A stretch of 64,000 bases of DNA from Candidatus Multivorans sp. (GCA_965247095.1 OZ251997.1:1920001-1984000), one strand, 5' to 3'. Shown: positions 8,165 through 19,194, counted from the stretch's first letter. The notes: a model not told the origin generated them from the letters alone. Numbers and translations are program-made.

Positions 8165-11100
8165 ATGCCGCAACTCGAACGCGTCCTGATCAGCAACCGC
8201 GGCGAGATCGCCATCCGCATCGTCAAGGCCGCCTCGGCGCTGGGCATGGAATCGGTGAGCGTCTATCCAGCCGCCGACTCGCTGTCGCTCCACACCCGCC
8301 TCGCGACATCGGCCGTCGAGATCGGAAACGGCGTTCCCGACGATCCTGTGGCCGCCTATCTCGACGCGGAGGCGCTGGTGGCGGCGGCCCACGGGAGCGG
8401 CTGCGACTGCGTCCACCCCGGCTACGGGTTCCTGGCCGAGAACGCCGGATTCGCCGAGCGGTGCGCCGATGCCGGACTGGTCTTCGTGGGACCGCCGCCG
8501 GCGGCGCTCTCGCTGTTCGGCGACAAGGTGCGCTCCCGCCAGCTCGCGGCCTCTCTCGACATCCCGGTGGTTCCCGGCAGCGACGGCCCACTCGAGTCCC
8601 CGGCCGACGCGGTGGATCTGGCCGCCCTGCTCGGCTACCCGGTGATGCTGAAGGCGGCTGCCGGCGGAGGCGGCCGCGGCATGCGCAGAGTCGCGTCCGC
8701 CGGGGCGATGACCGAGGCGTTCGCCCGCTGCCGGAGCGAGGCCGAGGCCGCCTTCGGCAACGGCGCACTGTTCGTCGAGAAGCTCATCGAGCGCCCGCGC
8801 CACATCGAAGTCCAGGTTCTCGCCGATGGGGACGGCAACGTCGTCCACCTGCACGAGCGGGACTGCTCGGTCCAGTTGCGCAACCAGAAGGTGATCGAGA
8901 CGGCGCCGGCGCCGGGCCTCGACGCCGACCTGCGGGACCGCATCCTCGCCGACGCGGTCAAGCTGGTCGCGGCTGCCGGCTACGCGAACGCCGGCACGGT
9001 CGAGTTCCTGGTCGTGCCCGAGACCGGCGAGCACTTCTTCATCGAGTGCAACGCGCGCATCCAGGTCGAACACACCGTCACCGAGCAGGTCACCGGCATC
9101 GACCTCGTCGAGGCCCAGTTCCGGATCGCCGCCGGCGCCACGCTCGCTGCCCTCGGTCTCGGTAGCCAGGGCGCGGTCGGCGCGCCGCGCGGCGCCGCCG
9201 TCCAGGCCCGGGTGGTCGCCCGCGGCGCGGGGACGCTGAGCGGCTACAAGGAGCCCACCGGCCCCGGCGTACGCGTCGACGGCTGCGGCTACGTCGGCTA
9301 CGCGCCGCCACCCCAGTTCGACCCGCTGCTCGCCAAGGTCATCGGGGCGAGTTCCTCGTCGTTCGCTTCCGGTCACGCCTCCTACGTCGCCGCGGTCGAC
9401 CGCCTTCTCCGGGCCCTGGACGAGTTCCATATCGGCGGTCTCGCCACCAACCTGAATCAACTGAAGGCGATCCTCGCCCACCCCGCGGTCCGCGCCGGCG
9501 ACGCACGGACCACGCTTCTCGGCGAACACCCGGACCTGCTCTCCCCCGCCGCCGACGCCGGCGGCAACGGCGCCCTGACCCTGCTGCGGCAGCAGGCGAC
9601 GCTGGCGGGCGTTTCCGTGGCGGGCGGCGCCGGCATGCAGCCCACCGCGAGGTCGACGGCCACGGAACTCCCGGTCGGACCAGGCCAGCAAGCCGTCGCC
9701 TGCCCCATGGCCGGATCGATCCTGGAGATCCGGGTCGCCGAGGGCGACCGCGTGGCCGCCGGCGAAGCGCTGCTAGTCGTCAGCGCGATGAAGATGGAGT
9801 CCCAGGTTGCCGCGCCGCTGAGCGGCACGGTGACGGCGCTCCAGCCGCTGACGGCCGGCGACACGGTCGAGGCGGGGCAGGTCGTCGCGGTCATCGCGCC
9901 CGCTGAGGGCGCGACAAGCGAGCCGCGGGCGGAGCACCGAGCCGACACTTGGGCGCCGCTGCTCGAGGATGTCGCCACGATGCAGGCCCTGGCGCACAAG
10001 CGGCTGGCGCCCGGCTCCGACGAGCGCGGCGTGGTGCGCCAGCGCAGCCGCGGCAAGTTGACCTGCCGGGAGCGCATCGACCTCCTGTTCGACGACGGCA
10101 GCTTCCACGAGATCGGAAGCATCGCGGGCTTTGCTTCGTACGACGAGAGCGGAGCGATCGTCGACTTCACGCCCGCCAACCACGTCGGCGGCTGGGGCCG
10201 AATCGAGAGCCGCACGGCCGTCGTCTGCGCCGACGACTTCACCTCCCGTGGCGGCCACGCGGACGGCGCGATCGGGGAGAAGAGCCGCCACCTCGACCGG
10301 CTGGCCCTGGAGATGCGGGTGCCCTCGGTCCGTCTGCTCGACGGCTCGTCCGGCGGCGGCAGCGTCGCCACGATGGTGCCGCAGCAAAGACAAGAGGGCG
10401 AAAGCAAGGCCAAGGAGAGCCGCGGCGCGATCAAGGCCGGCCGGCCCCGGGTCGCGGGCGGCGGCGGTTCCTTCCTGCCCGGCCACCTCGGCAGCACGAT
10501 GTACACGGAGCAACTGAGCACCGTGCCCGTCGTCAACCTGCTGCTCGGCAGCGTCGTCGGCATCGGCGCCGCCAAGGCCGTGCTCGGCCACTTCTCCGTC
10601 ATGGTGCGCGACATCGCGCAGTTGTTCGTCGCCGGACCTCCGGTCGTCCGCCCCGCGATGGGCTACGACATCACGAAGGAAGATCTCGGCGGCTGGCACA
10701 TCCACTGCCGCAACGGCTCGGTGGACAACCTCGCCGAGACCGAGGAGGAGGCGATGGCGCTCACCCGGCGCTTCCTGTCGTACCTGCCTTCCTCCGTCTT
10801 CGAGACGCCGCCGGTCGCGCCGCCCGATCCGAGCGACCCGACCGACCGCCGCGACGAGGAGCTGTTCAGCCTGATACCCCGCAAGCGCACCGCGACCTTC
10901 GACGTGCGCAGGGCGATCCGCCTGATGGCGGACAGGGACTCCTTCTTCGAGATCGGCCCGCTCTGGGGCACCGACCAGGTCACGGGTTTCGTGCGCATGA
11001 ACGGTCACCCGATGGGAGTCATCGCCTCCGACAGCCAGCACACCAACGGCGGCGCGCTCACCGCCGACGGCTGCCGCAAACTGACCCGCCACCTCGACCT

Positions 11101-11608
11101 CTGCGACCTCTTCCACCTGCCGGTCCTGAACCTGGTCGACAACCCCGGCTTTGCCGTCGGCCTCGAACACGAGATCACCGGCACCATCCGCTGGGGCGGC
11201 CAATGGATGATCGCCTTCTCCCAGGTCACCACGCCCATCTTCACCGTCCTCATGCGGCGCAGCTTCGGCGTCGCCGGCAACAACTACGCGACGCCGAGGG
11301 CCGAGCCGTCGATGCGCGTCGCCTGGCCCGCCGCCGACACCGGCGGCATCCCGCCCGAAGGCGGCATCGAAGCCGCCTACAAACGCCAACTCGCCCAGGC
11401 CGAGGACCCCAAGGCCCTACGCGACGAACTGATGGCACGAATCGAGAGCGCCCGCGGCCCCGTCGGCCCCCTGTCCCGCTTCCAGATCGAAGAGATGATC
11501 GACCCGCGAGACACCCGCCGGATGATCTGCGAGTGGATCGAAACGGCCTGGAAGATCGTCTCCCAGCCGGCGAGGCTGCGGCCGCGGCCGATTCAGTTCC
11601 GGCCTTGA
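8165..11608 (+). CDS. Single-chain acyl-CoA carboxylase (biotin carboxylase-BCCP-carboxyltransferase fusion)
   Basis: NRGEIA, HPGYGFLAEN, GGGGRGMR, ERDCSVQ; AMKM biotinylation site; C-terminal carboxyltransferase (LVDNPGF, IDPRDTR). Confidence 0.93.
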   Translation: MPQLERVLISNRGEIAIRIVKAASALGMESVSVYPAADSLSLHTRLATSAVEIGNGVPDDPVAAYLDAEALVAAAHGSGCDCVHPGYGFLAENAGFAERCADAGLVFVGPPPAALSLFGDKVRSRQLAASLDIPVVPGSDGPLESPADAVDLAALLGYPVMLKAAAGGGGRGMRRVASAGAMTEAFARCRSEAEAAFGNGALFVEKLIERPRHIEVQVLADGDGNVVHLHERDCSVQLRNQKVIETAPAPGLDADLRDRILADAVKLVAAAGYANAGTVEFLVVPETGEHFFIECNARIQVEHTVTEQVTGIDLVEAQFRIAAGATLAALGLGSQGAVGAPRGAAVQARVVARGAGTLSGYKEPTGPGVRVDGCGYVGYAPPPQFDPLLAKVIGASSSSFASGHASYVAAVDRLLRALDEFHIGGLATNLNQLKAILAHPAVRAGDARTTLLGEHPDLLSPAADAGGNGALTLLRQQATLAGVSVAGGAGMQPTARSTATELPVGPGQQAVACPMAGSILEIRVAEGDRVAAGEALLVVSAMKMESQVAAPLSGTVTALQPLTAGDTVEAGQVVAVIAPAEGATSEPRAEHRADTWAPLLEDVATMQALAHKRLAPGSDERGVVRQRSRGKLTCRERIDLLFDDGSFHEIGSIAGFASYDESGAIVDFTPANHVGGWGRIESRTAVVCADDFTSRGGHADGAIGEKSRHLDRLALEMRVPSVRLLDGSSGGGSVATMVPQQRQEGESKAKESRGAIKAGRPRVAGGGGSFLPGHLGSTMYTEQLSTVPVVNLLLGSVVGIGAAKAVLGHFSVMVRDIAQLFVAGPPVVRPAMGYDITKEDLGGWHIHCRNGSVDNLAETEEEAMALTRRFLSYLPSSVFETPPVAPPDPSDPTDRRDEELFSLIPRKRTATFDVRRAIRLMADRDSFFEIGPLWGTDQVTGFVRMNGHPMGVIASDSQHTNGGALTADGCRKLTRHLDLCDLFHLPVLNLVDNPGFAVGLEHEITGTIRWGGQWMIAFSQVTTPIFTVLMRRSFGVAGNNYATPRAEPSMRVAWPAADTGGIPPEGGIEAAYKRQLAQAEDPKALRDELMARIESARGPVGPLSRFQIEEMIDPRDTRRMICEWIETAWKIVSQPARLRPRPIQFRP

Positions 11609-11811
11609 GGGGGGCTGCGAGCTCCCCCGGCACCAACTGAGCGCGTTGAGGAGGGAATCAACCAGAGCTCGCTCAACCTCTCCGGCTCGATCGATGACCT
11701 TGGTGAAGAGATCAGCAACCTGGCCGGCCGAGCCCGTGCCCTTCACCGTCGCGCTCTCGAACTCCGGCAAGCCGCCTGAAGCCCTTGGACTTCAACGGGC
11801 CTGCCGGCCTG

Positions 11812-12135
11812 CTAGCGGCTGGCCTCGGCCAATCTGCTCCCGGAGGATGCCGGCGAAGCGGGCAGTACCTCGCGGTCGATCGCGGCCCCTTGCTTGGCCT
11901 CGACGACGGACACGTCGTAGGCCGTTTGGAGGTTCATCCACAGGACCGCTCCCGTTCCCATGTAGCGACCAAGGCGAACCGCCGTCTCCGCGGTGACGGC
12001 TCGCTCCCCGCGGAGAATCGCCGTGATTCGATTCGCCGGCACTCGGAGCGCGAGCGCCAGTTGGTTCGCAGTCATTCCTCGAGCTTCGAGTTCTGCCTTG
12101 AGAATCCGGCCCGGGTGGTTTCTCAGTCTGTTCAT
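11812..12135 (-). CDS. higA: HigA family antitoxin (Xre HTH)
   Basis: HPGRILKAEL...LRVPANRITAILRGERAVTAETAVRLGRY...WMNLQTAYD. Confidence 0.92.
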   Translation of the reverse strand: MNRLRNHPGRILKAELEARGMTANQLALALRVPANRITAILRGERAVTAETAVRLGRYMGTGAVLWMNLQTAYDVSVVEAKQGAAIDREVLPASPASSGSRLAEASR

Positions 12136-12137
12136 CG

Positions 12138-12425
12138 TCACCCCTTGTGGTAGTCCTCGATCACGACGTCCGCAGCATCTCCGCTGGCGAACCGGAAGGT
12201 CACTCGCCATCGCGCATTGATCGTCATGGAGCTTGTGCCCTTCCGCTTTCCGCTGAGGGAGTGCAGCCGAACTGACCGTAGTTCGCGGAGCGAATCCAGC
12301 GAAGGAGCCGCATCGAGCGTGTCCAGCAGGAGCAAGGCGCGTTCATAGTCCAAGCCACGGAATCCTCGTCGACGGTTCTCCTCAAACAGACGCCGAGTCT
12401 TGCTGTCGGCGAAGGACCGGATCAC
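12138..12425 (-). CDS. higB: HigB family RelE-like toxin
   Basis: VIRSFADSKTRRLFE...RLHSLSGKRKG...INARWRVTFRF...VVIEDYH; GTG start at 12425, upstream of higA. Confidence 0.88.
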   Translation of the reverse strand: MIRSFADSKTRRLFEENRRRGFRGLDYERALLLLDTLDAAPSLDSLRELRSVRLHSLSGKRKGTSSMTINARWRVTFRFASGDAADVVIEDYHKG

Positions 12426-12431
12426 CCCCGC

Positions 12432-12460
12432 ATCGTAGTACGCGCCTCGTACTACGTCAA
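12432..12460 (-). promoter_or_regulatory. higBA promoter with palindromic operator
   Basis: Minus strand TTGACG-17-TACGAT; perfect inverted repeat CGTAGTACG-N5-CGTACTACG (12434-12456). Confidence 0.75.
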
Positions 12461-12715
12461 TCGTCAGCGCTGTCCAACAGTCCGCTCGACCCACTAAAGA
12501 CATCGGCAAGGAATCCATGCCCGCCTGGGAGGGCGAACCGATGGATCTGCGCTGCGTAACGGACGCCATGTGGTGGCCACCGCCAAACACTGCGGCGTCT
12601 GCCGGTGCGAGCCAAGCGAGAAACGGACTCGACGCTCCACGCAGTGGTGCAGTGCCGTAACATCTAACGCTCCGCTGGCTCACACACGACACGCACAGCC
12701 GAGGAGCATGCCCCG

Positions 12716-13762
12716 ATGACATCCGAAGCCCGGGAATACCTGGAGCGGGTAGCGAAAGAGAACCGCGAGGCCATCGAGGGCGGCGCGGCGCCAACCCCAA
12801 ACAAGCTGTCAGTTCGCCGCCTTCTGGCCCTGTTCGGATACGCCAAGAGGGGACGTTTGGTGGTATCCACGATCCGCAACGCTCTTGAAGACAACGGACT
12901 GCGAACGAGCCCAGACTTCGAGAGCGTCTGGATCGACCACGAGATCTCGATCGAACTCGACCGCGAGAGCACGAACGGCTGGGTAGCGGCTGCGGCCATC
13001 CAGGATCCCACAGTCCGTATCGAAGCACTCGCTGCCGCTAACCACGAGCCCGCCGTCGCTCATCCCGAAGGCCTACTGAGCGAGGCAACCACACTCATGC
13101 TGCTCAACGACTACTCCCAACTCCCCGTTACGCAGGACTGCCGAGAGATCCGCAAGATCGAGGGCATGATCAGTTGGAAGTCGATCGGTTCGCGGCTGTC
13201 ATCCGGAGTCGAGTGCGCCCGAGTCAGGGACTGCGTGAACCCGCAGGTCCGCGACGTGCGCCAGGACACCCCGCTCCTGGATGCGGTTGCCGGTATCGCC
13301 AGCAACGGCTACACGCTGGTCCGGGACTCGACGAACAAGATCGTCGGTATCGTGACGACGAGCGATCTGAGCAGGGAGTTCCTTGAACTTGCCAGCCCGT
13401 TTCTCCTGATCGGCGAGATCGAGAAGTACCTGCACACACTCGTGCATGGCCGGTTCACGAAGGACGAGATCCTGGCGGCACTGCCCGAGGGACTCACCGC
13501 CACCGGTACCGCCGACCTCACGCTCGGCGGCTACTGCCGGCTTCTCCAGAAACCCGCGAACTGGAAAAAACTGGGCCTCGAGTTCAGCCGCAAGCAGTTC
13601 GTCGCAAGGCTGGAGGCTGTCCGGGAGATACGAAACGAGGTCATGCACTTCCGCCCCGACGGCCTGGACCCGGACAAGCAGCAAGTGCTGCACGGCCTCG
13701 TCGCGTTCTTCCGCCACCTCGCGCGAATGGGCGTTGTCGACACCTCCGCGAACTCGAACTGA
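12716..13762 (+). CDS. CBS-pair protein with C-terminal HEPN-like (RxxxxH) domain
   Basis: EATTLMLLNDYSQLPV...GMISWKSI and LVRDSTNKIVGIVTTSDL CBS repeats; C-terminal IRNEVMH motif; GAGGAG RBS. Confidence 0.75.
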   Translation: MTSEAREYLERVAKENREAIEGGAAPTPNKLSVRRLLALFGYAKRGRLVVSTIRNALEDNGLRTSPDFESVWIDHEISIELDRESTNGWVAAAAIQDPTVRIEALAAANHEPAVAHPEGLLSEATTLMLLNDYSQLPVTQDCREIRKIEGMISWKSIGSRLSSGVECARVRDCVNPQVRDVRQDTPLLDAVAGIASNGYTLVRDSTNKIVGIVTTSDLSREFLELASPFLLIGEIEKYLHTLVHGRFTKDEILAALPEGLTATGTADLTLGGYCRLLQKPANWKKLGLEFSRKQFVARLEAVREIRNEVMHFRPDGLDPDKQQVLHGLVAFFRHLARMGVVDTSANSN

Positions 13763-13794
13763 CCGCGCGAAAGACGAAGGAGGAGGTTCGGAAG

Positions 13795-16209
13795 ATGCAG
13801 GAGCAACCGTTCCGCGCCTGGTTGAGAGATGTCCGAGAACAGGTGGAGGGAAGCATCGCTACGCGACTCGCCGACTGCAGCCTGGTCGAGAGACACGAAG
13901 GCGATCTGGACGCCCATTGGAACGCGGACGGGCTAAGGGGGTTGCTTGACCGGCTCACGTACTCCAGGGAAGACGAACGAAACGGCAGATCTCCGGGGCA
14001 CAACGTCCCGACCAAGGGCGACCTCTACAACAACAGCGCAACGTTCAAGGCGGCCGTGAATCTCTACCGCAAGTTCCTCGACGCCCGAGGCGACGAGGGC
14101 GCGGAAGGCTCCGTTGCCCACTGCGAACGATGGGATCGGTACCTGGAGGAGGTGCGGCGCTACGTCGAGAGCGGGAAGCTGGACCGGGAGGAGATCGACT
14201 ACAAGTCGAGGATCGCCGCGAAGCTCACGAGCGCGCGAAACGCAGTGCTCGCCGGTGACGAAGACTGGTCCGATCTACTGAAGGAAGCGATCCTGGATCC
14301 AAGCAACAACCTCATTGACTTCCGGTTCGGCAAGCCAAGGCTTCGGGACTGGCTTGAGACGCAGGCTGAAGAGGCGTTCGGCGCACTAGCGGGGCTCTGG
14401 TCCGGCGAGGACATCTCGCTGGAAGACCGGATTCGCAGCTTCACCGAGAGCTTTCCGACCGACGTACTCTCTGGCACGGGGACGCGCTTGCGCGTGATCT
14501 CCGTGCTCTTGATGGCCCTCGACGCCCACCTCTACCCACCCTACAAGTTCAAGGAGTACCACAGTGCTTTCGCCCGCACCGGGCACCCGGTGCCACCTGC
14601 GGTCAACGACGAAGCCTCTCAGTACGAGCACGCCCTCGTCTTCCTGGACAAGATCATCGAGCGCGCTCGCCTAGCGGGACTCAAACGACCGAAGGACCGC
14701 CTTGAAGCGCAGTCGGTCCTGTTCGCGGTCGCCGGAGGCAGAGGAGCTGCCCCAAAGCCAGCGGACGATCGGCCTTGCTGGTTCGTGGGCGCTTCCTGGG
14801 ATGCAGGCGATCAGACGGATCGTTTCATCCGAGAGGGAATCTGGCAGAACGGCTACGAGGAGAAGTACCTGGACTATGTCAAGTCGATAGAGCCCGGGGA
14901 CCGAATTGCCATCAAGGCCACCTTCGTGAAGAAGCACGGTCTCCCCTTCGACAACAGGAGTGAAGACACCTCCACCATGGCGATCAAGGCGACCGGTGTC
15001 GTGACCGAGAACATGGGAGACGGTCGCAATCTCCGTGTGGACTGGACGCCCGCGAAACCCAGCCGCGAGTGGTACTTCTACACGTATCAGCCGACGGTCT
15101 GGAAAGTCACGCGCGATTCGGGCTGGCAGGCAGCCGCCTTGATCGATTTCACTTTCGACGGGGCGGAACAGGACCACAAGGAGTTCCTGCGCCACCGGTT
15201 CCCCGAACGCTACGCGGACGACGATCCCAACAATGACCGAACGGATTCGGACGTAGTTCGCAGCCCGGCAGAGGTCGATGTCTCGGATCTCGCCATCGAA
15301 CTCCTGTACGAACCGGGGGTTCTTCAGAACATCACGAACCTCCTGGACGACAAGCGCCAAGTCATCTTCCAGGGGCCACCCGGCACGGGGAAAACGTACG
15401 CTGCGCGCGAGCTGGCCACCTTCCTTGCAGGATCCAATGGCCAGGTCACCCTCGTCCAGTTCCACCCCTCCTACGCCTACGAGGACTTCGTGCAGGGTTA
15501 CCGGCCGACTCTGACCGCCGGTCAGGCCGGCTTTGAACTGCGCGACGGCCCGCTGGTTGCAGCGGCAGCGGCCGCCCGGACAGAGCCGGACGCCCTGCAC
15601 TTCCTGATCATCGACGAGATCAACCGGGGCAACTTGGCCAAGGTGTTCGGCGAGCTGTACTTCCTGCTCGAGTACCGCGACGAAGACATGAGGCTCCAGT
15701 ACGCCTCCACCGAGGACGAGCCGTTCAGTCTGCCCGAGAATCTCTACATCATCGGCACGATGAACACGGCCGACCGCTCGATCGCCCTGGTCGACCTGGC
15801 GCTGCGCCGACGATTCCACTTCGTCGAGTTCCATCCCGACAAGGAGCCGGTCGAGGGATTGCTCGGCCGGTGGTTGGAAAGGAACGCGCCCGAGATGGCT
15901 TGGGTGGCGGACGTCATGAGGCGAGCGAACAGCAAGCTGGATGACCGACAGGCAGCCATCGGGCCGAGCTACTTCATGAAGGAGGATCTCAACGAGGAGA
16001 AGGTCCGGCTGATCTGGGAGCACAACGTCCTGCCGTATGTGGAGGAACATCTCTACGGCGAGCCCGACCGGCTTGCCGATTTCGACCTCGGCAAGCTGCG
16101 GCGTGCAACAGAGTCCGCCGCTTCTGCCGCGGCCTCGGACAGCCGTGAAGCACCCGGAGAGCCTGACGGCGACGGGCAAGACGAAGAAGCCGCCGATGCG
16201 GGATCTTGA
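13795..16209 (+). CDS. mcrB: McrB-like AAA+ GTPase with extended multi-domain N-terminus
   Basis: GPPGTGKT, VQFHPSYAYEDFVQG, IIDEINRGN, MNTADRSIALVDLALRRRF McrB signature. Confidence 0.92.
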   Translation: MQEQPFRAWLRDVREQVEGSIATRLADCSLVERHEGDLDAHWNADGLRGLLDRLTYSREDERNGRSPGHNVPTKGDLYNNSATFKAAVNLYRKFLDARGDEGAEGSVAHCERWDRYLEEVRRYVESGKLDREEIDYKSRIAAKLTSARNAVLAGDEDWSDLLKEAILDPSNNLIDFRFGKPRLRDWLETQAEEAFGALAGLWSGEDISLEDRIRSFTESFPTDVLSGTGTRLRVISVLLMALDAHLYPPYKFKEYHSAFARTGHPVPPAVNDEASQYEHALVFLDKIIERARLAGLKRPKDRLEAQSVLFAVAGGRGAAPKPADDRPCWFVGASWDAGDQTDRFIREGIWQNGYEEKYLDYVKSIEPGDRIAIKATFVKKHGLPFDNRSEDTSTMAIKATGVVTENMGDGRNLRVDWTPAKPSREWYFYTYQPTVWKVTRDSGWQAAALIDFTFDGAEQDHKEFLRHRFPERYADDDPNNDRTDSDVVRSPAEVDVSDLAIELLYEPGVLQNITNLLDDKRQVIFQGPPGTGKTYAARELATFLAGSNGQVTLVQFHPSYAYEDFVQGYRPTLTAGQAGFELRDGPLVAAAAAARTEPDALHFLIIDEINRGNLAKVFGELYFLLEYRDEDMRLQYASTEDEPFSLPENLYIIGTMNTADRSIALVDLALRRRFHFVEFHPDKEPVEGLLGRWLERNAPEMAWVADVMRRANSKLDDRQAAIGPSYFMKEDLNEEKVRLIWEHNVLPYVEEHLYGEPDRLADFDLGKLRRATESAASAAASDSREAPGEPDGDGQDEEAADAGS

Positions 16210-17416
16210 TCTCCGCGAGTGGACACCAACCGAAGAGCCGGTGTCACTCTCGGTCAAGGAACGCGACCAACTGAGGCCCGTCCTCGCGAGCATCGAACCC
16301 GCTCCCGGGACGAGCGACGCGTACTACCTCAGGCCAGGTTCCAAGGTCGGCGCGCTTGAGATCGGCGATCTCTCCGTCTCCATCGAACCCAAACTACCCA
16401 TCGGCCGCGTGCTCTACCTGGCGTCCTACGCCATGGGCGTCGATTTCCGGGAGGAGCGTTTCGACTACGTGAGGCAACCGACGCTGGTCGAGGCTCTGGT
16501 CCCGGCGCTCACCCGCGCCGCCCGACGCGCCTTTGCCCGCGGACTCCTCCACGGCTACCGGACCGAAGAAGAAGCGCTGCACACGGTCCGTGGACGCATC
16601 CGCGTCGCCGATCAGCTCCGCCGCAGGTTCGGCGTACCTCTCCCGGTCGAGGTCCGCTACGACGACTTCACCGACGACGTGCTCGCCAACCAACTCGTCA
16701 AGGCCGCAGCCGACCACCTCGGCAAGCTCCGCATCCGCTCACAACGTTCCCGGCGTGATCTCGCCTGGGTCGCCGCGACCCTGGACAACGTGAGCCTGGT
16801 CGAGTTCCCGACAAACACCATCCCCGAGGTCAAGTTCGACCGGCTGAACGAGCACTACCGGGAAGTCGTGACCCTGGCACGGCTGATCCTCCGCTGCACG
16901 TCCATCGAGACCGGGCGCGGTCGAGTGCGAGCGAACGCCTTCCTGATGGATATGAACAAAGTGTTCCAGGAGTTCGTGATGCGGGCTCTGCGCAAAGAAC
17001 TGCGACTCACCGAATCGACGTTCCCGTCCGACAGGAAGCTGTCGAGGAGGGTCTTCCTGGACGAAGGCAGAGAGTTCGGGCTTGAGCCCGACCTCTCCTG
17101 GTGGGACGGCACAACCTGTACGTTCGTCGGCGACGCGAAGTACAAGCGGGTCAAGAACGAGCGAGTCCCCAACGCCGATCTCTACCAGCTACTCGCCTAC
17201 ACCACCGCCCTCGACCTTCCCGGCGGTCTGCTGATCTACGCGGAAGGCGAACCGGGGAGTACGGTCCATCAAGTCCTCCACGCCGGCAAGCGTCTGGAAG
17301 TCGCGACGATCGACCTGTCTGGTTCAATCAGCGAGCTTCATGGCGAGATCAGCAAGTTGGCTGGCCGCGTTGAAGTCCTCCAGCGTCAGGCGGCAACTCA
17401 CAGGCAGGCGGCCTGA
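16196..17416 (+). CDS. mcrC: McrC-like PD-(D/E)xK restriction nuclease subunit
   Basis: Overlaps the mcrB end; FLMDMNKVFQEFV, LEPDL...VGDAKYK, ADLYQLLAY. Confidence 0.92.
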   Translation: MRDLDLREWTPTEEPVSLSVKERDQLRPVLASIEPAPGTSDAYYLRPGSKVGALEIGDLSVSIEPKLPIGRVLYLASYAMGVDFREERFDYVRQPTLVEALVPALTRAARRAFARGLLHGYRTEEEALHTVRGRIRVADQLRRRFGVPLPVEVRYDDFTDDVLANQLVKAAADHLGKLRIRSQRSRRDLAWVAATLDNVSLVEFPTNTIPEVKFDRLNEHYREVVTLARLILRCTSIETGRGRVRANAFLMDMNKVFQEFVMRALRKELRLTESTFPSDRKLSRRVFLDEGREFGLEPDLSWWDGTTCTFVGDAKYKRVKNERVPNADLYQLLAYTTALDLPGGLLIYAEGEPGSTVHQVLHAGKRLEVATIDLSGSISELHGEISKLAGRVEVLQRQAATHRQAA

Positions 17417-17494
17417 GGCTGATCCACGCAGCGAGCGGGCTAGCCGTCCGGGGGTAAAGGCCTGCCCCCGCTCTACGCGAAGGCTCCTCTTCTC

Positions 17495-17524
17495 TTGACA
17501 CGCCTCATCGCCCTCGCCTATCCT
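17495..17524 (+). promoter_or_regulatory. Sigma70-type promoter upstream of DUF3800 leader
   Basis: TTGACA (17495-17500)-18 bp-TATCCT (17519-17524). Confidence 0.65.
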
Positions 17525-17530
17525 CCTCCC

Positions 17531-17590
17531 TGAGGCGCAAGGCTCTGCCTTACCCTCCTTCCGAGGCCCACGCTACGGCGTGGGCTTTCG
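17531..17590 (+). ncRNA. Candidate structured RNA/leader upstream of DUF3800 gene
   Basis: Starts at the predicted TSS; hairpin UGAGGC/GCCUUA, pyrimidine linker, then GGCCCACGC-UACG-GCGUGGGCU with a cUNCGg tetraloop followed by UUUCG. Confidence 0.55.
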
Positions 17591-17607
17591 TGCATCCTGG
17601 GAGTCCT

Positions 17608-18408
17608 GTGACCTTCCTAGCCTACCTTGACGAGTTCGGGCATATCGGTCCCTACGTCAGTCGCGGGGACCGCAGATACAAGAGCAGCCCGGTGTTCGGG
17701 TTCGCCGGCTACGTCCTTCCCGCAGATCAGGTGCGAGGATTCGGGACTTGGTTCTTCCAACGCAAGTGCGAACTCCTGGACTTCGAGATTCGGCGCTCCG
17801 GCCGACACCCCGCATTATGGGAGAAGAAAGGTGCCAGCCTCTACACCGTGACGAACGTCACGAAGTACCGGCAACTCCGGCTCTTCACGAACCGCCTCTT
17901 CAACAAGATCGCGAGACTAGGTGGCTTCGTACTCTACGTCGGCGTTGAGAAGACCGAGCCTCACACACAGCACGACTCGAAGGACCTGTACGTTCGCGTC
18001 CTTCTTGAGGCAATCAAGCGAATCGACCAGTTCTGCATGGATGACCGCAGGCCGCCGGACAACTTTCTGCTAGCTCTGGACGAACACGAGCAGCGTTCTG
18101 ACCTGCTCACCCAGGTATCGCAAGCGATGTACGGGGGAACATCACCTCGGCGCCGGCTAGTCGAACCGCCATTCCACCTGGAGAGTCACCGCTATCAGAC
18201 CGTACAAGCCGCGGACTGGATATGCGGGCTGGTCGGGCGTCTGGGAGCATTCTGGGCAGATCCCGAAGGCTACCCCGAGAACGAACTGTTCTTCCGCTAC
18301 TTCGGGCACCGCCTCAACCAGGTCAGCCGGCGCAGTGGAATTCGCATCGCCGTGGCTCAGCCAGGAAGCAGCTCCGCCGTTCAACGCCTTGCCAATGGCC
18401 AAACCTAA
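17608..18408 (+). CDS. DUF3800 family protein (predicted RNase H-like fold)
   Basis: N-terminal AYLDEFG and C-terminal ESHRYQTVQAADWICGL, matching the DUF3800 D-E...QxAD pattern; GTG 17608 (alternative start 17590). Confidence 0.8.
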   Translation: MTFLAYLDEFGHIGPYVSRGDRRYKSSPVFGFAGYVLPADQVRGFGTWFFQRKCELLDFEIRRSGRHPALWEKKGASLYTVTNVTKYRQLRLFTNRLFNKIARLGGFVLYVGVEKTEPHTQHDSKDLYVRVLLEAIKRIDQFCMDDRRPPDNFLLALDEHEQRSDLLTQVSQAMYGGTSPRRRLVEPPFHLESHRYQTVQAADWICGLVGRLGAFWADPEGYPENELFFRYFGHRLNQVSRRSGIRIAVAQPGSSSAVQRLANGQT

Positions 18409-18450
18409 CGTGGTAGCGGCATGTGGCAACGTCCTGTCGTGAAGGAACAC

Positions 18451-19194
18451 ATGCGCCAACTCACCGACTACCGCGTTCTGACGTTTGACTGCTACGGCAC
18501 CCTGATCGACTGGGAAACCGGGATCTGGGACGCGTTGCAGCCGCTGATCATGCGGAACCGGGGCGCCGAGGTCACCCGCGAGGCCGCGCTGCTTGCGTTC
18601 GGGCAGGGCGAGAGCCTTCAGGAGCAGGAGACGCCCGGGTTGCTCTACCCCGAGCTGCTGGCTCGCGTGCATCGGCGCATCGCGGACAGCCTCGGCATGC
18701 AATCCGACCCGCAGCTCGACGAGGTGTTCGGCGCCTCGGTGCCGGACTGGCCGGCGTTTCCGGACACCGCGGACGCGTTGCGGGTCCTCAAGCGGCACTT
18801 CCGGCTGGTCATCCTGTCCAACGTGCACCGGGACGGCATCGCGGGGTCGAACCGCAAGCTCGGGGTCGAGTTCGACGCGATCTACACGGCCGAGGACATC
18901 GGCTCCTACAAGCCGGCCGACGCGAACTTCGAGTACTTGCTCGCCCATCTCGCGTCCGACTTCGGGCTCGACCGATCGAATGTCCTGCACACCGCGCAGA
19001 GCCTGCACCATGACCATGTGCCGGCGAACCGGTTCGGACTCGCCAACGCCTGGATCGACCGGCAGCGCCTGTCCGAGGGCGGGAGTTGGGGCGCTACGGA
19101 CCGCGTCCAGACGATGCCGACCACCGATTTCGTGTTCTTCTCGATGGGCGAGATGGCGGAAGCCGTAGCGGAGTGCGCGAACGCCGAGACCTGA
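18451..19194 (+). CDS. Haloacid dehalogenase type II (HAD superfamily)
   Basis: LTFDCYGTLIDWE motif I; ILSN; GSYKP; HTAQSLHHDH. Confidence 0.9.
   Translation: MRQLTDYRVLTFDCYGTLIDWETGIWDALQPLIMRNRGAEVTREAALLAFGQGESLQEQETPGLLYPELLARVHRRIADSLGMQSDPQLDEVFGASVPDWPAFPDTADALRVLKRHFRLVILSNVHRDGIAGSNRKLGVEFDAIYTAEDIGSYKPADANFEYLLAHLASDFGLDRSNVLHTAQSLHHDHVPANRFGLANAWIDRQRLSEGGSWGATDRVQTMPTTDFVFFSMGEMAEAVAECANAET

What the first reader, a model, noticed from the sequence alone, without database searches (positions are those of the whole stretch)
12716..17416. CBS-HEPN protein co-oriented with McrBC: candidate nucleotide-sensing RNase backup to type IV restriction
Seen: a 348-aa ORF with a tandem CBS pair and a C-terminal helical domain bearing R-N-E-V-M-H, ending 32 bp before mcrB, which in turn overlaps mcrC. 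Established: CBS pairs bind adenosyl ligands (AMP/ATP/c-di-AMP/Ap4A); RxxxxH HEPN domains are RNases in abortive-infection effectors; McrBC cuts modified DNA. Inference: a three-gene system in which a change in the adenine-nucleotide pool, or a signal nucleotide, gates a HEPN RNase when restriction fails. This would be a CBS-gated analogue of CARF/SAVED-HEPN effectors. No cyclase is encoded nearby.
Basis: partly seen in the sequence, partly recalled or inferred. Interest (0 to 1): 0.7.

Follow-up and report, generated by a model that had tools for sequence, protein, structure and literature searches.

The report
Known DS-11 gene in defence hotspot
The gene beside this restriction system belongs to DS-11, a published one-gene anti-phage family that likely shreds RNA after binding a small adenine-containing signal; it is gained and lost independently of its neighbours, and published plating data hint, untested, that the signal comes from a phage enzyme that destroys the cell's methyl donor.

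Summary
The 348-aa ORF (12716-13762) passes the curated cut-off of NCBIfam DS11_antiphage. It aligns full-length (36%) to E. coli DS-11 and keeps all three residues whose mutation abolished defence (Y133, R306, H311).

It is not an obligate three-gene system. It occupies a variable slot in a genus-level defence hotspot anchored on mcrBC. Only 6 of 21 genus genomes with this mcrC have DS-11 beside it. None of 72 other DS-11 loci has adjacent mcrBC, and each side decays without the other. This scan has met DS-11 before beside other neighbours.

One new lead concerns the whole family. In the published 24-phage screen, DS-11 rows exist only for T3 and Bas67. Those are the only 2 of 23 panel genomes with a SAM lyase; T7, which has Ocr instead, has no row. 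DS-11 may therefore sense the lyase product MTA and guard SAM-dependent restriction. This is a two-phage correlation with rival triggers, but it is cheaply testable.

The parts
12716..13762 (+). DS-11 family CBS-HEPN anti-phage gene, 348 aa
   Evidence: NCBIfam NF053863 316.3 bits against cut-off 260; 36% identity over the full length to E. coli DS-11
12716..12976 (+). Conserved N-terminal alpha/beta domain (aa 1-87), function unknown, present in E. coli DS-11 too
   Evidence: AF2 secondary structure and confidence; R34, F40, R45, R54, P66, D67, F68 nearly invariant
13004..13402 (+). CBS pair (aa ~97-229). Predicted adenosyl site: YSQLP 133-137 (Y133 = E. coli Y157) plus GIVTTSD 211-217. The second site looks degenerate (GMISWKS lacks the Asp; motif roles recalled)
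13397..13726 (+). Swt1-like HEPN domain with RNEVMH (13631-13648; R306/H311 = E. coli R330/H335)
   Evidence: alignment to DS-11; paper's HHpred HEPN_Swt1 98% for DS-11; 19 of 40 homologue domains hit PF18731 weakly, the window's own did not
13795..16209 (+). McrB-like GTPase, 804 aa, with three swappable N-terminal modules (about 13795-14109, 14110-14754, 14770-15234) before the AAA domain
   Evidence: AAA_5 and NF008457 hits, the latter below its cut-off; motifs; module presence varies among relatives
16196..17416 (+). McrC PD-(D/E)xK nuclease subunit, 406 aa
   Evidence: PF10117 183 bits; PD...DAK at 17087-17146
11666..11779 (+). Relic 3' end of an earlier mcrC copy (37 codons plus stop), left by a previous replacement of the hotspot
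   Evidence: tblastn 20/37 identical, E 7e-9; maps onto mcrC 3' ends of relatives
11812..12425 (-). higB-higA toxin-antitoxin pair; in most relatives that carry it, it follows mcrC
   Evidence: PF05015, PF01381; positions in relatives
17590..18408 (+). DUF3800 gene, another variable hotspot passenger, with a sigma70-like site at 17495-17524
   Evidence: PF12686; full-length in 2 and a fragment in 1 of 24 related loci; promoter scan
8165..11608 (+). Biotin-dependent carboxylase, conserved left boundary of the hotspot
18421..19194 (+). HAD-family hydrolase, conserved right boundary of the hotspot

Best explanation
The 348-aa gene is a member of the published one-gene anti-phage family DS-11 and likely works on its own: a predicted homodimer whose CBS pair would bind an adenosyl metabolite made during infection and would then switch on a shared HEPN RNase site, likely arresting the infected cell. 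It sits in front of mcrBC because both occupy a variable defence hotspot between the carboxylase and HAD genes of this genus, not because they form one system. Shown here: family membership, conservation of the tested residues, and independent gain and loss. Shown by others in the E. coli homologue: defence, and loss of defence in Y157A, R330A and H335A. Inferred: RNase activity, the dimer, abortive infection and the ligand. My leading ligand candidate (about 0.35) is 5'-methylthioadenosine released by phage SAM lyase.
For: Membership: NF053863 above cut-off; full-length alignment to the L082 ORF, which reads identical by eye to WP_000257686.1 printed in the paper's Table S8; Y133/R306/H311 = Y157/R330/H335. 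Published phenotype: -logEOP 1.6-3 on T3 and 1.4-1.7 on Bas67, about 0 or below for the three mutants (Table S7 rows). Dimer: ipSAE 0.60 against best control 0.00, runs agree in at least 77% of contacts, pLDDT at least 80; the mark was reached by 20 of 30 solved pairs and 1 of 23 single chains; the interface includes CBS helices and residues 306 and 310-312. Independence: 21 of 36 genus genomes have a full-length mcrC orthologue, and DS-11 is next to it in 6. G003 has DS-11 with no McrC match, and G011 has it with only a stopped mcrC relic. Of 6 fetched loci with both, L009 lacks aa 1-103 and L010 lacks the DNA carrying the RxxxxH motif. None of 72 DS-11 loci outside this site has adjacent mcrBC; one has it 5 kb away. 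DS-11 presence is not clustered on the HAD tree (6 changes, shuffled mean 6.9) or the McrC tree (5, mean 6.1). The same slots hold methylases, PIN toxin pairs, a DUF4143 ATPase and others in relatives.
Against: No experiment exists on this copy. The window's own HEPN domain hit no Pfam family, and the fold search did not test it because the CBS pair filled the list. Within the genus, DS-11 at this site lies directly upstream of and co-oriented with mcrB wherever both are present, with a 32-bp gap here, so co-transcription is likely. The published assay host MG1655 carries its own mcrBC (recalled), so McrBC-independence was not formally shown. Only the best 80 of 524 GTDB matches were examined, and 8 of the 72 outside loci have under 2 kb downstream. 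Many homologues sit among housekeeping genes, so a non-defence role in some lineages is not excluded.
Confidence: 0.82

Rival explanations
1. DS-11, McrB and McrC form one coupled system in which McrBC activity or failure gates the RNase.
For: Tight co-oriented spacing; adjacency in 6 of 21 mcrC-bearing genus genomes; precedent for McrBC-linked HEPN effectors as a predicted abortive second line (PMC11090510, passages); one longer DS-11 homologue is fused to a RAMA domain (P0122).
Against: 15 of 21 orthologous mcrC loci lack adjacent DS-11; 0 of 72 outside loci have adjacent mcrBC; DS-11 is kept after mcrBC loss and decays beside intact mcrBC; presence is unclustered on the trees; E. coli DS-11 was cloned as one gene.
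Confidence: 0.08
2. Trigger variant: DS-11 is stand-alone but senses something other than the SAM-lyase product, such as an ATP/ADP/AMP or Ap4A shift, c-di-AMP in this host, or a small T3/Bas67 protein; or T7 simply blocks it.
For: Six other annotated T3 genes (0.6, 0.65, 1.05, 1.1, 4.3, 7.3) and two unannotated ORFs also match Bas67 but not T7, and gp1.2 is closer to Bas67. The paper modelled ATP. The best CBS matches bind diverse ligands, including AMP, c-di-AMP and SAM/MTA. The host has a DAC cyclase.
Against: Of those candidates, only gp0.3 is a known enzyme acting on an adenosyl metabolite. E. coli is not among the control genomes with a DAC match, yet DS-11 works there. A general ATP shift would be expected with many of the other panel phages (inference).
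Confidence: 0.5
3. In this lineage the protein is a general nucleotide-sensing stress RNase rather than a phage defence.
For: Several lineages keep it at fixed housekeeping sites, such as after an amidase in 7 loci and before a conserved 300-aa gene in 5. CBS-HEPN fusions were proposed in 2013 as ligand-regulated RNA-stability factors (PMC3710099, passages).
Against: Patchy presence: 11 of 36 genus genomes have any match, one of them only a short N-terminal piece, and 9 of 151 class genomes match, all in one genus. It sits in a hotspot. At least 12 of 72 outside loci have a recognised defence gene within two genes. The homologue has a phage phenotype.
Confidence: 0.08

Closest known systems
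DS-11 (DefensePredictor; WP_000257686.1; NCBIfam NF053863; PMC13092281)
   Same: Same three-domain layout, 36% identity over the full length, all three mutated residues kept, HMM score above the equivalog cut-off.
   Different: About 24 aa shorter linker. Acidobacterial host (from relatives' record titles). Neighbour is mcrBC, whereas the E. coli KE47 copy sits between an integrase and PD-T7-5. Untested.
McrBC type IV restriction, NxxD clade (PMC11090510)
   Same: AAA GTPase with Walker A/B and NTAD, followed by an overlapping McrC with PD...DAK.
   Different: Three N-terminal modules with no Pfam or PDB-sequence match, swapped between relatives; below the E. coli McrB/McrC equivalog cut-offs; target modification unknown.
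CoCoNuTs (McrBC variants with HEPN effectors; PMC11090510)
   Same: McrBC homologue plus a HEPN RNase in one predicted operon; layered-defence logic.
   Different: No helicase or wHTH-HEPN CnuE gene lies between the boundary genes; HEPN is on a CBS sensor; the association is not conserved.
CARF/SAVED-HEPN effectors (Csm6/Csx1; recalled) and PrrC/RloC restriction guards (recalled; discussed in PMC3710099)
   Same: Ligand-gated, predicted dimeric HEPN RNase; a possible second line behind restriction.
   Different: The sensor is a CBS pair with no dedicated cyclase; there is no evidence of a physical link to a restriction enzyme as in PrrC.

Membership tests
DS-11 | Scores above the NCBIfam NF053863 equivalog cut-off | tested here: met
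   316.3 against 260 bits, profile 1-304 of 305
DS-11 | Full-length homology to WP_000257686.1 with N-terminal domain, CBS pair and HEPN in that order | tested here: met
   133/373 identical, E 2e-75, against the L082 ORF; L082 reads identical by eye to the supplement sequence
DS-11 | CBS aromatic Y157 and HEPN R330/H335 required for defence are conserved | tested here: met
   Y133, R306, H311
DS-11 | C-terminal domain has the Swt1-like HEPN fold | tested here: inconclusive
   19 of 40 homologue domains hit PF18731 at E<=1 (best 1.2e-4), the window's did not; fold search dominated by CBS; paper's HHpred 98% for the E. coli protein
DS-11 | Homodimer with HEPN motifs meeting | tested here: inconclusive
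   Predicted only: score 0.60 against control 0.00, residues 306 and 310-312 at the interface
DS-11 | Protects against phage as a single gene | not testable with these tools
   Shown only for the E. coli homologue
McrBC | McrB AAA GTPase with NxxD motif and overlapping McrC PD-(D/E)xK | tested here: met
McrBC | N-terminal modified-base reader domain | tested here: inconclusive
   No Pfam hit, no PDB sequence hit for the third module, single-sequence fold failed at pLDDT 38
Conserved three-gene DS-11-McrBC system | Linkage conserved across lineages, genes lost together | tested here: not met
   6 of 21 within the genus; 0 of 72 outside; independent decay
CoCoNuT | Associated helicase CnuH and wHTH-HEPN effector CnuE (types II/III) | tested here: not met
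   No such ORF between the carboxylase and HAD genes; features. The coiled coils of type I were not tested.

The most novel reading that the evidence does not exclude
DS-11 is a guard for SAM-dependent restriction. Its CBS pair binds 5'-methylthioadenosine released when a phage SAM lyase destroys SAM, and this fires the HEPN RNase. Its repeated placement beside McrBC, DNA methylases, type IIG enzymes and BREX would then be complementary layering: McrBC cuts methylated phage DNA, and DS-11 kills cells infected by phages that abolish methylation.
Probability: 0.3. Interest if true: 0.78.

Novelty: new member of a known kind. Interest (0 to 1): 0.38.

Why it matters
As a locus it is ordinary: one more DS-11 in a defence hotspot. 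The DS-11 paper states that its adenine-derivative ligand remains to be discovered. The exact match between DS-11's published phage range and SAM-lyase carriage makes that open question testable with one T3 gene deletion and one ligand assay. If true, it would be a counter-counter-defence that reads the by-product of a phage anti-restriction enzyme. My searches found no paper making this link (titles and abstract openings only, open-access library).

Tried and rejected
PADLOC: no model for the ORF.
Phage collection tblastn: no DS-11 match.
ESM Atlas gave no result for the protein or one homologue.
Single-sequence fold of the McrB N-terminus was useless (pLDDT 38), so its modules stay unassigned. 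PDB sequence searches of module 3 and of the HEPN alignment found nothing significant.
Repeat scan found no att-like or cassette repeats around the unit beyond short, probably chance, pairs.
No promoter-like site was found on the + strand before DS-11.
RNA evidence: one metatranscriptome held small exact contigs in DS-11, mcrB and DUF3800 (share 0.06). Contigs cannot show transcription or an operon, so this is not used.
The SAM-site residues of human cystathionine beta-synthase could not be checked (no passages), so sequence did not discriminate SAM/MTA from AMP/ATP.
A search for fused forms found 1 among 7993 candidates, weak evidence either way.
c-di-AMP as the family ligand was set aside because E. 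coli is not among the DAC-positive controls; it is not excluded for this host.
Enrichment of SAM-dependent systems beside DS-11 (4 of 72 outside loci, plus 3 methylases at the genus site) has no baseline and is not claimed.
The IMG/VR scan for T3-type SAM lyase gave 20 loci, all on 38-42 kb contigs, with no host information.

Full report
Observation. The ORF at 12716-13762 encodes 348 aa. It ends 32 bp before an 804-aa McrB (13795-16209), which overlaps a 406-aa McrC (16196-17416) by 14 bp. Pfam finds CBS, AAA_5 and McrBC. The AF2 model (70-sequence alignment, pLDDT 90) shows an N-terminal alpha/beta domain, a CBS pair (best Z 14.6) and a helical C-terminal domain with RNEVMH at 306-311. The region 12-19 kb is somewhat lower in GC (0.62-0.65) than its flanks (0.68-0.73).

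Identity. NCBIfam NF053863 DS11_antiphage scores 316.3 bits against a cut-off of 260. The DefensePredictor paper (PMC13092281; passages and Tables S6, S7, S8, S11 in part; preprint passages) describes DS-11 as a one-protein CBS-HEPN system. Y157A, R330A and H335A abolish defence, and the ligand is left undiscovered. An E. coli KE47 ORF (L082) reads identical by eye to the published protein and aligns to the window protein at 133/373 identities. The three residues map to Y133, R306 and H311. Across 121 aligned proteins position 133 is Y in 94 and F in 27, and R306 and H311 are each present in 120. The HEPN call for the window protein rests on this homology: its own domain hit no Pfam family, 19 of 40 homologue domains hit HEPN_Swt1 weakly, and the paper's HHpred gave 98%. 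A homodimer with ATP riding along scored 0.60 against a best control of 0.00. The runs agreed in at least 77% of contacts with pLDDT at least 80, and the mark was reached by 20 of 30 solved pairs and 1 of 23 single chains. CBS helices and residues 306 and 310-312 lie at the interface. This may reflect likeness to solved CBS dimers. CBS-HEPN fusions were already noted in 2013 (PMC3710099, passages).

Is it one system with McrBC? GTDB gave 524 relatives, of which the best 80 were fetched (the scan patterns included the HEPN motif, so these loci do not test motif conservation). Intact adjacent mcrBC occurs in 6 of 80, all at one site between a biotin carboxylase and a HAD hydrolase gene. Two more loci at that site keep DS-11 with only mcrB or mcrC fragments. 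Of the other 72, none has adjacent mcrBC and one (L024) has it 5 kb away; 8 of the 72 have under 2 kb downstream. Among 36 genomes of the same genus, 21 carry a full-length mcrC orthologue. DS-11 is adjacent in 6 of these, elsewhere in 2 and unmatched in 13. G003 has DS-11 without an McrC match and G011 has it with a stopped relic. These genus genomes overlap the fetched loci and are not a second independent sample. In L009 DS-11 lacks aa 1-103, and in L010 the DNA matching 13460-13683, which holds the catalytic motif, is missing, while mcrBC is intact in both. DS-11 presence needs 6 changes on the HAD tree (20 rows; shuffled mean 6.9; 177 of 500 shuffles as low) and 5 on the McrC tree (23 rows; mean 6.1; 101 of 500). 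Both trees are poorly resolved, but starred branches force at least 3 changes. The window's closest HAD relative (L093) lacks DS-11. The slots around mcrBC hold N6/N4 and MT-A70 methylases, PIN toxin pairs, higBA, a DUF4143 ATPase and DUF3800 in different relatives. McrB's N-terminal modules are shuffled between relatives. The window itself keeps a 37-codon relic of an older mcrC end before higBA, which suggests the present block was re-acquired. Outside the site, neighbours vary: type IIG RM (L014, L025, L081), BREX (L048), Dnd (L017, L040), Druantia (L023), Cas3 (L037), AbiE (L053), PD-T4-3 (L046), DrmD-like (L034) and MkoA-like (L051), which is 12 of 72. Many others have housekeeping neighbours (115 of 138 nearest ORFs went to Pfam and 76 chosen ORFs to PADLOC, from a crude gene caller). 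Earlier scan notes report DS-11 beside still other partners; these are leads only. Against my reading: wherever both are present at this site, DS-11 is directly upstream and co-oriented, so one transcript is likely; the assay host MG1655 has mcrBC (recalled); and one Micromonospora protein fuses DS-11 to a RAMA domain.

How it most likely works. An adenosyl ligand binds the intact CBS site (YSQLP plus GIVTTSD; motif roles recalled), the dimer rearranges, and the two RxxxxH motifs form an active RNase that arrests the cell (inferred from HEPN family behaviour). Y157A removed defence in a viable strain, which fits an activating ligand better than release of an inhibitor (inference).

Lead on the ligand. 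In Table S7's screening sheet the only DS-11 rows are T3 (-logEOP 3) and Bas67 (1.7) (90 of 109 occurrences read, the whole screening sheet among them). T7 is in the panel and has no DS-11 row. I read that as no effect, but I did not see the figure. I searched 23 of the 24 panel genomes (Candy has no accession; T3 through NC_003298, whose gp0.3 is identical to the panel record's) with the SAM-lyase family PF23780. Exactly 2 of 23 match: T3 and Bas67. Bas67's gene is annotated 'SAM hydrolase / restriction inhibitor' and is 66% identical to T3 gp0.3, while T7 has Ocr (PMC8594841 passages). An exact match has chance 1 in 253 if phages were independent, but only 1 in 3 among the three Autographiviridae. 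The pattern runs against phylogeny, since T3 groups with T7. Phage SAM lyases convert SAM to MTA and homoserine lactone and neutralise RM and BREX (PMC12255297 passages; 10.1101/2023.02.27.530186 search listing). CBS pairs solved with SAM or MTA are among the top fold matches (4uuu, 3kpb), but so are AMP and c-di-AMP binders. Rivals: six other annotated T3 genes and two unannotated ORFs also match Bas67 and not T7, gp1.2 is closer to Bas67, and T7 might carry an inhibitor. Whether phages of this host carry SAM lyases is unknown. I put MTA at about 0.35 as the ligand. Searches showed no paper linking DS-11 to SAM lyase, judged from listings in an open-access library.

Verdict. A new member of a known one-gene family in a variable defence hotspot. 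The three-gene system is not supported. Interest 0.38, carried mostly by the testable SAM-lyase lead.

Noticed in passing
window 13795-15234 and L002-L010, L083-L098: McrB N-terminal modules are mixed and matched across one genus (module 1 is 97% identical in L003 while module 2 is 56%; module 2 is duplicated in L010, L084, L086, L087; HARE-HTH in L087). None of the window's three modules has a Pfam name. Possible specificity shuffling of a type IV enzyme.
   Followed up: partly
window 11666-11779: Relic 3' end of an older mcrC upstream of the present block, showing replacement at the hotspot.
   Followed up: yes
window 12716-12976; G015:C1:19503-19685, G034:C1:1999012-1999164: The DS-11 N-terminal domain has short separate matches in small open frames of two genus genomes; it may exist apart from CBS-HEPN. 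Function unknown.
   Followed up: no
P0122 (761 aa, Micromonospora): Full DS-11 fused behind a RAMA domain (aa 298-400), linking a restriction-associated reader to CBS-HEPN in one chain.
   Followed up: partly
L002:6106-7855, L007:5899-7485, L009:6133-7954: An N6/N4 DNA methylase lies divergently just upstream of DS-11 in three loci, with an MT-A70 gene or an unannotated ORF beside it.
   Followed up: partly
L032, L035-L038, L044, L052 and L012, L016, L019, L030, L060: DS-11 is kept at fixed housekeeping sites (after an amidase gene; between kinase-like genes and a conserved 300-aa gene) in two lineages, away from defence islands.
   Followed up: no
run X6, joint window 12162 to 18450: A contig joins higB directly to the HAD gene, skipping DS-11-mcrBC-DUF3800; probably a related strain with the other hotspot arrangement.
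   Followed up: no
window 17590-18408: DUF3800 gene with its own sigma70-like site; another patchy passenger of the hotspot, possibly a defence gene.
   Followed up: partly
G000:C1:3167415-3167765: The host genome encodes a DAC-family diadenylate cyclase, so c-di-AMP may exist in this organism.
   Followed up: no
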